Shown here piece by piece: positions 1-2,834 of a DNA stretch of 6,296 nt; the first letter of the stretch is position 1, and each line of letters starts with the position of its first letter. The notes below the pieces were generated by a model. The model did no database searches. It saw only the letters and a program-made list of their open reading frames with translations, and was not told where the DNA came from. The stretch lies in the IMG/VR virus record IMGVR_UViG_2529292985_000023. The stretch is one strand, 5' to 3'. The position numbers were made by a program, and so were the translations under genes. This DNA is from a virus (Duplodnaviria > Heunggongvirae > Uroviricota > Caudoviricetes).

Positions 1-1
1 A

Positions 2-82
2 TGCCGGGCAACTGCACGCATTATGGGCGTTAGCCTCAACACGATTTTACGTCACTTAAAAAACTCAGGCCGCAGTCGGTAA
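2..82 (+). CDS. insA: IS1 InsA, C-terminal 26 codons only (5' end outside window); stop TAA at 80-82
   Basis: Frame 2 translates to [26 protein letters not shown], matching the InsA C-terminus with one substitution (GVG to GVS). Confidence 0.7.
58..64 (+). promoter_or_regulatory. IS1 programmed -1 ribosomal frameshift motif AAAAAAC (A6C) at the insA/insB overlap
   Basis: TTAAAAAACTC is present 16 nt upstream of the insA stop, as in canonical IS1. Confidence 0.7.
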
Positions 83-504
83 CCTCGCGCATACAGCCGG
101 GCAGTGACGTCATCGTCTGCGCGGAAATGGACGAACAGTGGGGATACGTCGGGGCTAAATCGCGCCAGCGCTGGCTGTTTTACGCGTATGACAGGCTCCG
201 GAAGACGGTTGTTGCGCACGTATTCGGTGAACGCACTATGGCGACGCTGGGGCGTCTTATGAGCTTGCTGTCACCCTTTGACGTGGTGATATGGATGACG
301 GATGGCTGGCCACTGTATGAATCCCGCCTGAAGGGAAAGCTGCACGTAATCAGCAAGCGATATACGCAGCGAATTGAGCGGCATAACCTGAATCTGAGGC
401 AGCACCTGGCACGGCTGGGACGGAAGTCGCTGTCGTTCTCAAAATCGGTGGAGCTGCATGACAAAGTCATCGGGCATTATCTGAACATAAAACACTATCA
501 ATAA
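58..504 (+). CDS. insB: IS1 transposase InsB reading frame, normally expressed as the InsAB' fusion by -1 frameshifting; the first in-frame ATG is at 127
   Basis: Track ORF 127-504 ([22 protein letters not shown]...HYLNIKHYQ) is IS1 InsB. The same frame is open from 34 after a TAG at 31-33. Confidence 0.85.
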
Positions 505-558
505 GTTGGAGTCATTACCCCCCGTGATTACATGGCCTGATTTTTCATACTGAAGTGG

Positions 559-1479
559 TCAACAAAAACTGGCCACCGAGTTAGAGTTTTTCCAGTATCG
601 ATTTTCCGATTCGTTTGGGGGTAACCCACCGTTATATTCGTGCGGTCTTAGTGCGCTGTAATATCCAACGATATAGTCCGTTATGGCGTGAGCTGCCTCG
701 CTGAAGCTTACGTAACCCACCACCGGCATCCATTCGTTCTTCAGACTCCTGAAGAAGCGTTCCATTGGGCTGTTATCCCAGCAGTTTCCGCGCCGGCTCA
801 TACTCTGTCTGATCTGGTATCGCCACAATAACTGCCGGAACTGCCTGCTCGTATAATGACTGCCCTGATCGCTGTGGAACATCACCCCGCCGGGCTTACC
901 ACGGGTTTCCCATGCCATTTCCAGCGCTTTCATGGTGAGCCTGCTGTCCGGCGAGAACGACATGGCCCAGCCCACTGGTTTTCTTGCGAACAGGTCGAGA
1001 ACAACGGCGAGGTACGCCCAGCGCTTACCCGTCCAGATACAGGTCACATCACCGCACCACACCTGATTTGGCTCGGTCACGGCGAACTGCCTTTCAAGGT
1101 AGTTAGGGATAGCAACATGTTCATGACCACCACGTTTATACCGGTGAGTCGGCTGCTGACAGCTGACCAGCCCCAGCTCTTTCATGAGCCTGCCAGCAAG
1201 CCAGCGTCCCATCTGGTAGCCTCTCCGGGTTGCCATTGTGGCGATGCTTCTTGCTCCGGCCGAACCATGGCTGATGCCATGTAGCTCAAGTACCTGACTG
1301 CGTAATACAGCCCGTCTGCCGTCTGGTTTTTCAGGACGGTTTTTCCAGTATCTGTAGCTGCTGCGATGAACCCCGAACACTTGGCAGAGTGTGACCACAG
1401 GATAATGCGCTCTGAGTTTCCCGATTATCGAGAACTGTTCAGGGAGTCTGACATCAAGAGCGCGGTAGCCTTTTTTAAT
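559..1479 (-). CDS. insO: IS911 OrfB transposase catalytic (DDE/rve) domain; frame opens at the AUU codon at 1479-1477 and is joined to orfA by -1 frameshift
   Basis: Track ORF 559-1398 contains an IS3-family integrase core ([13 protein letters not shown]...[10 protein letters not shown]...[18 protein letters not shown]). The frame is -1 relative to orfA, and its TGA stop lies inside the terminal IR. Confidence 0.8.
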
Positions 1480-1727
1480 ATTTCATTCTCCATTTCAATG
1501 CGTTGTAGCTTTTTCCTCAGCTTACGTATTTCGATTTGTTCTGGTGTTATCGGAGAGGCTTTTGGTGTTTTGCCCTGACTCTCATCACGCAGTTGTTTGA
1601 CCCATCTTGTCATTGTGGAAAGGCCAACATCCATAGCTTTGGCGGCATCTGCCACCGTGTATTTCTGGTCAACAACCAGTTGAGCGGATTCGCGTTTAAA
1701 CTCTGCGCTAAAATTTCTTTTTTTCAT
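1425..1727 (-). CDS. insN: IS911 OrfA (100 aa, HTH/leucine-zipper transposition regulator). True start is the ATG at 1727-1725; the track ORF begins 12 codons upstream
   Basis: Translation [49 protein letters not shown]...[14 protein letters not shown] matches recalled IS911 OrfA. Confidence 0.85.
1470..1476 (-). promoter_or_regulatory. IS911 A6G slippery heptamer (AAAAAAG on the minus strand) for the OrfAB -1 frameshift
   Basis: Forward CCTTTTTTAAT at 1469-1479 reads ATTAAAAAAGG on the minus strand, near the 3' end of orfA. Confidence 0.7.
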
Positions 1728-1799
1728 TGGAGCACCTGTGTTGTTCTGAGGTGAGCATATCACCTCTGTTCAGGTGGCCAAATTCAGTGTGCCACTTCA

Positions 1800-2362
1800 G
1801 AACCAGACGTTCGCTCCTACAGCACCAAATCAGGTCTGGGTGGCGGACCTGACGTATGTTGCCACACAGGAGGGATGGTTGTACCTCGCTGGCATCAAAG
1901 ATGTTTATACGTGCGAAATTGTCGGCTACGCCATGGGAGAGCGCATGACAAAAGAGCTGACAGGTAAAGCCCTGTTTATGGCGCTCAGGAGCCAGCGCCC
2001 ACCTGCCGGGCTAATCCACCACTCTGATCGAGGTTCACAGTACTGCGCATACGATTACCGGGTCATACAGGAGCAGTCTGGTCTGAAAACATCAATGTCG
2101 CGTAAAGGTCACTGTTACGACAACGCTCCGATGGAAAGCTTCTGGGGAACGCTGAAAAATGAGAGCCTGAGCCACTATCGTTTTAATAACCGGGATGAAG
2201 CCATCTCAGTAATACGGGAATACATTGAGATTTTCTACAATCGTCAGCGTCGTCACTCTCGTCTGGGGAATATCTCCCCGGCAGCCTTCAGGGAAAAATA
2301 TCATCAGATGGCTGCTTAAAAAAAGAACAAATGGTAGTGTCCGCTATTGCCAGTACACCTCA
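1800..2362 (+). mobile_element. 3' remnant of a second IS3-family element (IS3 group, possibly IS600-like), truncated on its left by the IS911 insertion
   Basis: Contains an OrfB C-terminal half followed by a plausible terminal IR ending ...GGTAGTGTCCGCTATTGCCAGTACACCTCA at 2362. The IS600 attribution is from memory only. Confidence 0.6.
1801..2319 (+). pseudogene. IS3-family transposase OrfB, C-terminal fragment (catalytic domain); the first 9 codons of the track ORF are read out of the IS911 IR
   Basis: Translation ...PNQVWVADLTYVATQEGWLYLAGIKD...HHSDRGSQYCAYDY...SMSRKGHCYDNAPMESFWGTLKNE...[18 protein letters not shown] aligns by eye with IS3 InsF. No orfA or N-terminal part is present. 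Confidence 0.75.
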
Positions 2363-2834
2363 CCGGGTGGCATGGATAAACCCGGAAGAGAGTAAATCAA
2401 ACCGCGCAATTGGCGTTGCGCTGAATGATACTGCATGTCGCGTATTGAAAAAACAAATCGGGAATCATCACCGTTGGGTATTTGTGTATAAGGAAAGCTG
2501 TACCAAACCAGACGGAACGAAAGCGCCAACAGTCAGGAAGATGCGGTATGACGCAAACACAGCCTGGAAAGCGGCGCTGAGACGAGCAGGTATTGATGAT
2601 TTCAGATTTCACGACTTGAGACACACCTGGGCAAGTTGGCTGGTTCAAGCCGGAGTCCCGTTATCAGTGTTACAGGAAATGGGAGGCTGGGAGTCTATCG
2701 AAATGGTTCGTCGATATGCTCACCTCGCACCTAATCACCTTACCGAACACGCACGGCAAATAGACTCGATTCTGAACCCATCGGTCCCAAATTTGTCCCA
2801 GTCAAGAAATAAGGAACGTACTAATGATGTGTAA
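2363..2834 (+). pseudogene. Tyrosine recombinase (phage/P4-like integrase) C-terminal catalytic fragment, N-terminally truncated by the IS3-family insertion
   Basis: Track ORF 2331-2834 carries the box II motif [10 protein letters not shown] and the catalytic tyrosine region [13 protein letters not shown]. Only about 157 codons remain and the upstream Arg box I region is missing. Confidence 0.8.

What the first reader, a model, noticed from the sequence alone, without database searches (positions are those of the whole stretch)
1..2834. Nested IS insertions destroying an island integrase
The inferred order of events is: an integrase gene was interrupted by an IS3-family element, that element was hit by IS911, and IS1 lies 31 bp from the other IS911 end. 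Only the integrase catalytic C-terminus survives, so whatever element this integrase served is probably fixed in place. The piled-up ISs also provide homology for rearrangement.
Basis: partly seen in the sequence, partly recalled or inferred. Interest (0 to 1): 0.4.

Follow-up and report, generated by a model that had tools for sequence, protein, structure and literature searches.

The report
IS-wrecked Sf-phage integrase in Shigella
This is an ordinary Shigella scar: the integrase gene of a serotype-converting-type prophage at the thrW tRNA site was cut by IS600, IS600 was then cut by IS911, and later IS-driven shuffling put unrelated DNA next to it.

Summary
The window holds IS1 nt 250-768 (1-519), a 31-bp spacer (520-550), a complete inverted IS911 (551-1799), IS600 nt 702-1264 (1800-2362) and the last 156 codons of a tyrosine integrase (2363-2834).

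The interpretation needs three corrections.
- The integrase is not an anonymous island integrase. It is the thrW-specific integrase of the Shigella flexneri serotype-converting phages SfI/SfII/SfIV/SfV (98.2-98.6% DNA identity for the intact gene).
- Its tRNA-type att site is not beyond the left edge. It lies directly after the stop codon (2849-2862). There the prophage remnant abuts a separate satellite-like island (PerC, PRiA4_ORF3, cos-like site) that has its own P4-type integrase in relatives.
- This is not a clean nest. The spacer is a relic of a P2-like tail-fibre gene, not IS600. No target duplications flank IS911 or IS600. The left flank of this IS911 has five versions among related genomes.

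The window is a whole draft contig of Shigella dysenteriae CDC 74-1112 and ends in IS copies on both sides. The same IS600/integrase junction is widespread in Shigella and is already drawn in the literature. Interest is low.

The parts
1..519 (+). IS1, 3' part (IS1 nt 250-768), with the insB' ORF at 127-504 and the right terminal repeat ending at 519. It is cut by the contig end, not by biology.
   Evidence: Pfam DDE_Tnp_IS1 E=2.9e-74. 100% identical to the IS1 copy in L009-L012. Position in IS1 computed. Contig end shown.
520..550 (.). 31-bp relic of the 3' end of a P2-like prophage tail-fibre gene, trapped between the IS1 and IS911 termini.
   Evidence: 100% match in 71 E. coli genomes, always inside a tail-fibre gene. 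The context is a P2-like tail gene cluster. The homology stops exactly at both IS termini. No match to IS600 or to SfI.
551..1799 (-). Complete IS911 (1249 bp): IRR at 551, IRL at 1799, orfA 1425-1727, slippery A6G at 1470-1476, and an orfB frame open to the stop codon at 559-561.
   Evidence: 99.8% identical to annotated IS911 copies. Inverted repeats, OrfA, slippery site and orfB frame checked. Pfam HTH_Tnp_1 and rve.
1800..2362 (+). IS600 right part (nt 702-1264): 3' part of orfB plus the right terminal repeat. The left 701 bp, orfA and IRL are missing.
   Evidence: 99.8% identical to annotated IS600. Coordinates derived from the full copy at L005 800-2063. Pfam rve, rve_3 and rve_2.
2363..2834 (+). 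3' 472 nt of the thrW-specific integrase of SfI/SfII/SfIV/SfV-type phages (third base of codon 216 through codon 372, plus the stop). It keeps HDLRH, GGW and the RYAH tyrosine. It lacks the box I arginine and both DNA-binding domains. The annotated 167-aa ORF (2331-2834) starts inside the IS600 end.
   Evidence: 1 mismatch in 472 nt against the intact integrase of E. coli E7476. The intact gene is 98.2-98.6% identical to the SfI/II/IV/V int genes. Pfam Phage_integrase positions 52-171 of 172.
2835..2862 (.). att remnant. 2849-2862 (TGG^GATAATAGGAG) is the reverse complement of the thrW 3' end, and corresponds to the first 18 bp of the 46-bp SfI attP core with a 4-bp TGCC deletion. At 2862/2863 the sequence switches into the neighbouring island.
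   Evidence: Alignment with int-thrW (L003), int-island (L004) and yagP-island (L002) junctions. The annotated SfI attP core was compared.
2863..5569 (.). It holds a 119-aa ORF (3063-3422, +), PRiA4_ORF3 (3415-3957, -), a 61-aa ORF (4078-4263, -), a cos-like site (4290-4392), PerC (4561-4842, -) and a 133-aa ORF (5148-5549, +).
   Evidence: In E. coli N10 the same island lies between yagP' and a P4-type integrase next to thrW. It sits in tandem with an intact Sf-type prophage in E. coli CP131_Sichuan. Pfam hits. cos-like alignment.
5570..6296 (+). Context: left end of an IS66-family element (ISEc8-like) that runs off the contig end.
   Evidence: Homology to the E. coli islands ends at 5570/5571. 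95% identical to ISEc8 copies in Stx phages. IS66-type orfA and TnpB_IS66 gene calls.

Best explanation
This is a decayed, IS-scrambled end of a prophage at the thrW tRNA-Thr integration hotspot of Shigella dysenteriae CDC 74-1112.

Shown:
- An SfI/II/IV/V-type lambdoid phage integrase, whose 3' end sits against the thrW-derived att core, received an IS600 insertion after nt 647.
- The IS600 was complete at that stage, because it still is in some Shigella genomes at the same junction.
- Later the left end (IRL) of an IS911 became joined to IS600 nt 702. This removed the left 701 bp of IS600.
- The sequence on the other side of IS911 is unrelated: 31 bp of a P2-like tail-fibre gene, then IS1.

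Inferred:
- The IS911/IS600 joint arose in one of two ways. Either IS911 inserted into IS600 and recombination between IS911 copies then exchanged its IRR-side flank, or IS911 made an adjacent deletion.
- IS-mediated rearrangement at IS600 likewise removed the integrase 5' half.

Consequences:
- The integrase fragment cannot work. It lacks the arm-binding and core-binding domains and one catalytic arginine.
- The element it served has been fragmented, not merely locked in.
- The island to its right is a separate element of a tandem array at thrW and has its own integrase in relatives.
For: - Segment identities and exact breakpoints.
- Integrase identity: the intact gene is 98.2-98.6% identical to SfI/SfII/SfIV/SfV int. 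The intact copy sits next to thrW-proA in E. coli E7476. The annotated attP core of SfI matches window 2849-2862.
- Tandem array: the intact integrase followed by the same island in E. coli CP131_Sichuan, the island alone in E. coli N10, and the junction alignment.
- Order of events: a full 1264-bp IS600 at the identical junction in L009-L012, and IS911 plus truncated IS600 at the identical junction in L006, L007 and L013-L018. Five of the six relatives compared differ from the window by only 1-2 bases over 1800-2848. L017 falls out of register in that ungapped comparison.
- Not a clean nest: the spacer is P2-like tail-fibre DNA, bounded exactly by the IS termini. The IS911 flanks are TAC and GAA. 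The flanks of the full IS600 are CGC and CCG. The integrase 5' part is absent from all Shigella-type loci.
- IS911 as a rearrangement point: five different IRR-side flanks against one constant IRL-side flank. In L016 a GGT target duplication is split between two inverted IS911 copies.
- Source and spread: the contig is AERM01000230.1 of S. dysenteriae CDC 74-1112 (PMC6397287). The exact junction ORF lies on 34 contigs, named as integrase in S. boydii and Shigella sp. records. No complete E. coli genome ranks as holding the junction.
Against: - The reciprocal product of a simple IS911 insertion (IS600 nt 1 to about 704 abutting the IS911 IRR) was not found. The only collection scanned probably holds no Shigella, so this says little.
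- The IS1-spacer-IS911 join is seen only in this draft contig. It occurs in none of the 13 long related loci, so it could be a misjoin across a repeated IS.
- One flank in relatives switches between the IRL and IRR ends of IS911. Plain homologous recombination does not explain that, so the rearrangement history is more complex than stated here.
Confidence: 0.88

Rival explanations
1. Clean nested insertion. IS600 inserted into the integrase and IS911 then simply inserted into IS600. The missing IS600 left half and integrase 5' half would lie in order just beyond IS911 and IS1.
For: The two right-hand junctions are exact IS termini. The order IS600 then IS911 is supported by relatives with a full IS600.
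Against: - The 31 bp on the far side of IS911 is P2-like tail-fibre DNA, not IS600.
- There is no 3-bp duplication around IS911 (TAC versus GAA).
- Even the full-length IS600 in relatives lacks a duplication, and it has an O-like replication gene on its left rather than the integrase.
- The integrase 5' part is absent within 10 kb in every related locus.
Confidence: 0.04
2. The left 550 bp (IS1 plus spacer) is joined to this IS911 only by an assembly error. The draft assembler may have walked through a multi-copy 1.25-kb IS911 and come out at the flank of a different copy. In that case IS1 is not really 31 bp from this IS911.
For: - The window is a whole 6,296-bp draft contig that ends in repeats on both sides.
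- Other draft assemblies break at or near the IS911/IS600 boundary (L020, L021).
- The spacer occurs in none of the long related loci, and the junction was not found in the genome collection.
Against: Related finished genomes show that the IRR-side flank of this IS911 really does vary from strain to strain, so a strain-specific flank is expected. Nothing in the sequence itself marks a misjoin.
Confidence: 0.2
3. The IS911/IS600 joint arose by an IS911-mediated adjacent deletion (intramolecular transposition) from a copy already sitting nearby. On this reading there was no insertion into IS600 followed by flank exchange.
For: The joint is an exact IS911 terminus with no duplication. No reciprocal junction was found.
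Against: It cannot be told apart from insertion followed by recombination with the data in hand. The demonstrated inversion between IS911 copies in L016 compared with L017 shows that flank exchange does happen at this copy.
Confidence: 0.3

Closest known systems
Integrase of Shigella flexneri serotype-converting phages SfI, SfII, SfIV, SfV (thrW-specific lambdoid tyrosine integrase)
   Same: The intact E. coli copy, which differs from the window fragment by 1 in 472 nt, is 98.2-98.6% identical in DNA to the int genes of these phages. The thrW-derived att core lies directly after the stop codon, as annotated in SfI. The location next to proA-thrW matches what is described for these phages (PMC3306764).
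   Different: Only the 3' 472 nt of the gene survive. No xis, gtr genes or other phage genes are attached in the window. The att core is reduced to 14 bp with a 4-bp deletion and is fused to another island.
IS600-interrupted integrase remnant in the proA-yaiC (thrW) region of S. flexneri host strains
   Same: The Figure 2 legend of PMC3306764 lists IS600 ORF1/ORF2 and a 'putative integrase gene (int)' among the conserved host genes of this region. The type-A loci (L008-L012) show a full IS600 + int' + thrW + proA, with the same junction as the window.
   Different: In the window, IS600 is further truncated by IS911. A satellite-like island separates int' from thrW, and the upstream side has been replaced by unrelated DNA.
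IS911 and IS600 (IS3 family) and IS1 expansion with IS-mediated rearrangement in Shigella genomes
   Same: All three ISs are near-identical to their many other copies. Flank exchange and inversion at IS911 copies can be seen directly among relatives.
   Different: Nothing is different in kind. This is one more instance.
Tandem arrays of integrative elements at one tRNA gene (for example SfI next to SfX at thrW)
   Same: An Sf-type prophage end and a second element share thrW-derived att sequence at their joint. Tandem SfI-SfX integration at thrW is published (PMC3306764).
   Different: Here the partner is a satellite-like island with a P4-type integrase, not a second Sf phage.

Membership tests
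IS600 (IS3 family) | Near-identity to the IS600 sequence, including its terminal inverted repeat | tested here: met
   Window 1800-2362 is 99.8% identical to copies annotated 'IS3-like element IS600 family transposase'. It aligns to nt 702-1264 of a 1264-bp copy that has a CAT target duplication.
IS600 (IS3 family) | Complete element: both inverted repeats, orfA and orfB | tested here: not met
   Only the right 563 bp are present. IRL, orfA and the 5' part of orfB are missing. It is a fragment of IS600, not a mobile copy.
IS911 (IS3 family) | Full length with both inverted repeats, orfA, the A6G frameshift site and orfB | tested here: met
   1249 bp, 99.8% identical to annotated IS911. The inverted repeats match at 22 of 36 positions including the terminal TGAAGTGG. 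OrfA is 100 aa, A6G lies at nt 324, and the orfB frame is open for 307 codons.
IS911 (IS3 family) | 3-bp target duplication, as expected after a simple insertion | tested here: not met
   The flanks are TAC and GAA. This argues against an undisturbed simple insertion. It does not argue against the element being IS911.
IS1 | Sequence identity and terminal inverted repeat | tested here: met
   Window 1-519 equals nt 250-768 of a 768-bp IS1 at 100% identity (L009), ending in the IS1 terminal repeat. Pfam DDE_Tnp_IS1. The contig end truncates it.
Tyrosine recombinase (Phage_integrase, PF00589), Sf-phage/thrW subgroup | Catalytic domain with R...K...HxxR...[H/W]...Y | tested here: not met
   The fragment keeps HDLRH, GGW and the RYAH tyrosine. 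The box I arginine (ATGLRRSN, residue 200 of the intact protein) lies upstream of the break. The Pfam match starts at profile position 52. It is a gene remnant of this family, not a functional member.
Tyrosine recombinase (Phage_integrase, PF00589), Sf-phage/thrW subgroup | Near-identity to SfI/II/IV/V int, with an adjacent thrW-type att core | tested here: met
   98.2-98.6% DNA identity for the intact gene. Window 2363-2862 is 96.8% identical to SfI. The att core was aligned.
Phage satellite (PICI / P4-like) for the neighbouring island 2863-5569 | Own integrase, AlpA-type regulator, replication or primase module, and a helper-type cos site in a compact island at a fixed att site | tested here: inconclusive
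   A P4-type integrase, AlpA and Ash/AntA are seen in relatives (L014, L017), and a P4-family primase in L004. A cos-like site matches the SfI termini. No satellite marker set was scored, and only the distal part lies in the window.

The most novel reading that the evidence does not exclude
The island immediately right of the broken integrase may be a phage satellite that carries a cos site copied from SfI-type serotype-converting phages (window 4290-4392). On that reading the thrW array would be a fossil satellite-helper pair. Satellites that parasitise Sf phages could then influence how serotype-converting phages spread in Shigella. The IS pile itself holds nothing new.
Probability: 0.35. 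Interest if true: 0.35.

Novelty: already known. Interest (0 to 1): 0.1.

Why it matters
It matters little beyond annotation. The analysis names the broken gene precisely as an Sf-type, thrW-specific prophage integrase. It places its att site correctly. It shows that the neighbouring PerC/PRiA4 island is a different element. It also gives a worked example of how IS600, IS911 and IS1 erode and shuffle prophages in Shigella: comparison with finished genomes shows the same IS911 copy carrying five different partners on one side. For genome scanners, the useful lesson is that a pile of ISs in a short draft contig should not be read as a simple insertion nest unless target duplications and flank continuity have been checked.

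Tried and rejected
- The spacer as IS600 sequence. A BLAST with 7-base words against a full IS600 found no match, so this was rejected.
- The spacer as part of the Sf phage's own tail-fibre gene. There is no match in SfI. In E. coli the spacer sits in a P2-like tail gene cluster, so this was rejected. SfII, SfIV and SfV were not tested individually.
- Finding DNA beyond the window edges. The window is the whole contig. The IS1/spacer/IS911 junction was not found in the species-representative genomes.
- Finding the reciprocal IS600-left/IS911-IRR junction. There were no hits in the species-representative genomes, but that set probably lacks Shigella, so the result is uninformative.
- Looking for the integrase 5' half. 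It is present only in the intact E. coli loci L003 and L004, and absent from all Shigella-type loci within 10 kb.
- The integrase as a CP4-6 intF-type or P4-type island integrase. This was considered from memory and rejected, because the best matches are the Sf phage integrases. The P4-type integrase of the neighbouring island is a separate gene.
- A literature search by WGS accession (AERM00000000) found nothing. The assembly accession did give the strain name.
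Full report
**What is in the sequence.**
The window is a mosaic of five abutting pieces on the left, and each was mapped to the base.
- Bases 1-519 are IS1 nt 250-768. They are 100% identical to the IS1 copy in related genomes and end in the IS1 terminal repeat.
- Bases 520-550 are a 31-bp spacer.
- Bases 551-1799 are a complete 1249-bp IS911 in minus orientation, 99.8% identical to annotated copies. It has both inverted repeats, a 100-aa OrfA, the A6G slippery site and an open orfB frame.
- Bases 1800-2362 are IS600 nt 702-1264 at 99.8% identity, running to the last base of the right inverted repeat. The reference was a 1264-bp copy flanked by a CAT duplication.
- Bases 2363-2834 are nt 648-1119 of a tyrosine integrase. 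They differ by one base in 472 from the intact 372-aa gene of E. coli E7476.

**Where the window comes from.**
An exact-protein look-up returned the window itself as a complete contig: AERM01000230.1, 6,296 bp, of assembly GCA_000193895.2. PMC6397287 lists that assembly as Shigella dysenteriae CDC 74-1112. The contig starts inside IS1 and ends inside an IS66-family element. This has two consequences. Nothing lies beyond the left edge to inspect. The path through the multi-copy IS911 in a draft assembly cannot be verified from the sequence alone.

**What the integrase is.**
- The intact version of the gene is 98.2-98.6% identical in DNA to the integrases of the Shigella flexneri serotype-converting phages SfIV, SfII, SfV and SfI. 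These phages integrate into tRNA-thrW downstream of proA (PMC3306764).
- In E. coli E7476 the intact gene ends 14 bp from thrW, followed by proA.
- The break falls in codon 216. The fragment keeps HDLRH, GGW and the RYAH tyrosine, but loses the box I arginine (ATGLRRSN) and both N-terminal DNA-binding domains. It cannot function.
- The annotated 167-aa ORF begins inside the IS600 end.

**Where the att site is.**
- Window 2849-2862 (TGG^GATAATAGGAG) is the reverse complement of the thrW 3' end. It corresponds to the first 18 bp of the 46-bp attP core annotated in SfI, with a 4-bp TGCC deletion.
- At 2862/2863 the sequence switches into a different element carrying a 119-aa ORF, PRiA4_ORF3, PerC and other genes.
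- In E. coli N10 that element sits alone between yagP' and its own P4-type integrase next to thrW.
- In E. coli CP131_Sichuan it sits in tandem behind an intact Sf-type prophage integrase.

So the window shows the joint of a tandem array at thrW. The broken integrase belonged to the prophage on the left, not to the island on the right.

**Order of events.**
The exact junction ORF occurs on 34 contigs and is named integrase in S. boydii and Shigella sp. records. The finished genomes returned show two contexts.
- Type A (L009-L012) has a full 1264-bp IS600 at the identical integrase junction, followed by thrW and proA.
- Type B (L006, L007, L013-L018) has IS911 joined to IS600 nt 702, as in the window.

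Over window 1800-2848, five of the six relatives compared differ from the window by only 1-2 bases. L017 falls out of register in that ungapped comparison. No complete E. coli genome in the collection ranks as holding this junction.

**Why it is not a clean nest.**
- The spacer is not IS600. It is a perfect 31-bp match to the 3' end of a tail-fibre gene in a P2-like prophage, found in 71 E. coli genomes. The homology stops exactly at the two IS termini.
- IS911 is flanked by TAC and GAA, with no 3-bp duplication.
- The full IS600 in type A is flanked by CGC and CCG. Its left neighbour is an O-like replication gene, not the integrase.
- The integrase 5' 647 nt are absent from every Shigella-type locus within 10 kb.

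Both IS600 and IS911 have therefore taken part in further rearrangements.

**Direct evidence for IS-mediated shuffling.**
The IRL end of this IS911 is always joined to IS600 nt 702. Its IRR end has five different partners: the window, L006/L015, L007/L013, L014/L017/L018 and L016. In L016 the IRR-side flank is part of an HTH_36 gene. A second, inverted IS911 9.7 kb away carries the other part of that gene on its IRL side, with GGT at both joints. The IRR side of that second copy carries the flank seen in L017. This is what an inversion by recombination between two inverted IS911 copies produces.

**What remains uncertain.**
- I cannot tell whether the IS911/IS600 joint arose by insertion followed by flank exchange or by an adjacent deletion. 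The scan for the reciprocal junction found nothing, but in a collection that probably lacks Shigella.
- The IS1-spacer-IS911 join is unique to this draft contig and could be a misjoin. I put that at about 0.2.
- One flank in relatives sits on the IRL end in L007/L013 but on the IRR end in L014 and L016-L018. Simple homologous recombination does not explain this.

**Comparison with what is known, and verdict.**
An IS600-plus-integrase remnant in the proA-yaiC region of S. flexneri hosts is already drawn in PMC3306764 (Figure 2 legend). Tandem integration at thrW is described in the same paper. From general knowledge, IS expansion with prophage decay is a textbook feature of Shigella genomes. 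The finding is real, accurately observed and ordinary. The one mildly interesting side observation is a roughly 100-bp cos-like stretch at 4290-4392 that aligns across the joined termini of SfI. It suggests that the neighbouring island is a satellite able to use an Sf-type helper.

Noticed in passing
window 4290-4392: A stretch of about 100 bp in the neighbouring island aligns (104 columns, about 86% identity) across the joined left and right termini of phage SfI, making it a cos-like site. Relatives of the island carry a P4-type integrase, AlpA and Ash/AntA, or a P4-family primase. This suggests a phage satellite that an Sf-type helper could package.
   Followed up: partly
window 5570-6296: Left end of an IS66-family element (about 95% identical to ISEc8). 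It cuts the island just after the 133-aa ORF and runs off the contig end. In relatives its far side is joined to lambdoid late-regulatory genes (Dam, RusA, KilA-N, antiterminator), so it is another rearrangement point.
   Followed up: partly
window 4870-5000: Several copies of a TGAACCAAC-like motif lie in the divergent intergenic region between PerC (4561-4842, minus strand) and the 133-aa ORF (5148-5549). They could be regulator binding sites or iterons.
   Followed up: no
L007 4017, L013 4019 versus L014 8222, L016 17607, L017 5407, L018 5405: The same unique flank (...GCCTGACGGCGTAAAC) abuts the IRL end of an IS911 in two genomes and the IRR end in four others, at the same nucleotide. Homologous recombination between IS copies cannot switch the kind of end, so this points to independent insertions at the same site or to a transposition-mediated event.
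   Followed up: partly
L016 5407 and 16359-17607: This is a clean example of an inversion between two inverted IS911 copies. The GGT target duplication of an IS911 insertion in an HTH_36 (O-like) gene is split between the two copies, and the IRR-side flanks are swapped relative to L017.
   Followed up: yes
window 2851/2852: The thrW-derived att remnant lacks 4 bp (TGCC) compared with the intact tRNA end. The same deletion is present at the island end in E. coli N10, whereas E. coli CP131_Sichuan and P15-25 lack only 1 bp. This small polymorphism in the island's distal att copy might affect excision.
   Followed up: no
window 2331-2834: Gene callers annotate a 167-aa 'integrase' whose first 11 codons (the 11th straddling the junction) come from the IS600 right end. 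That makes it a chimeric ORF and a convenient exact marker for this junction (34 contigs hold it).
   Followed up: yes
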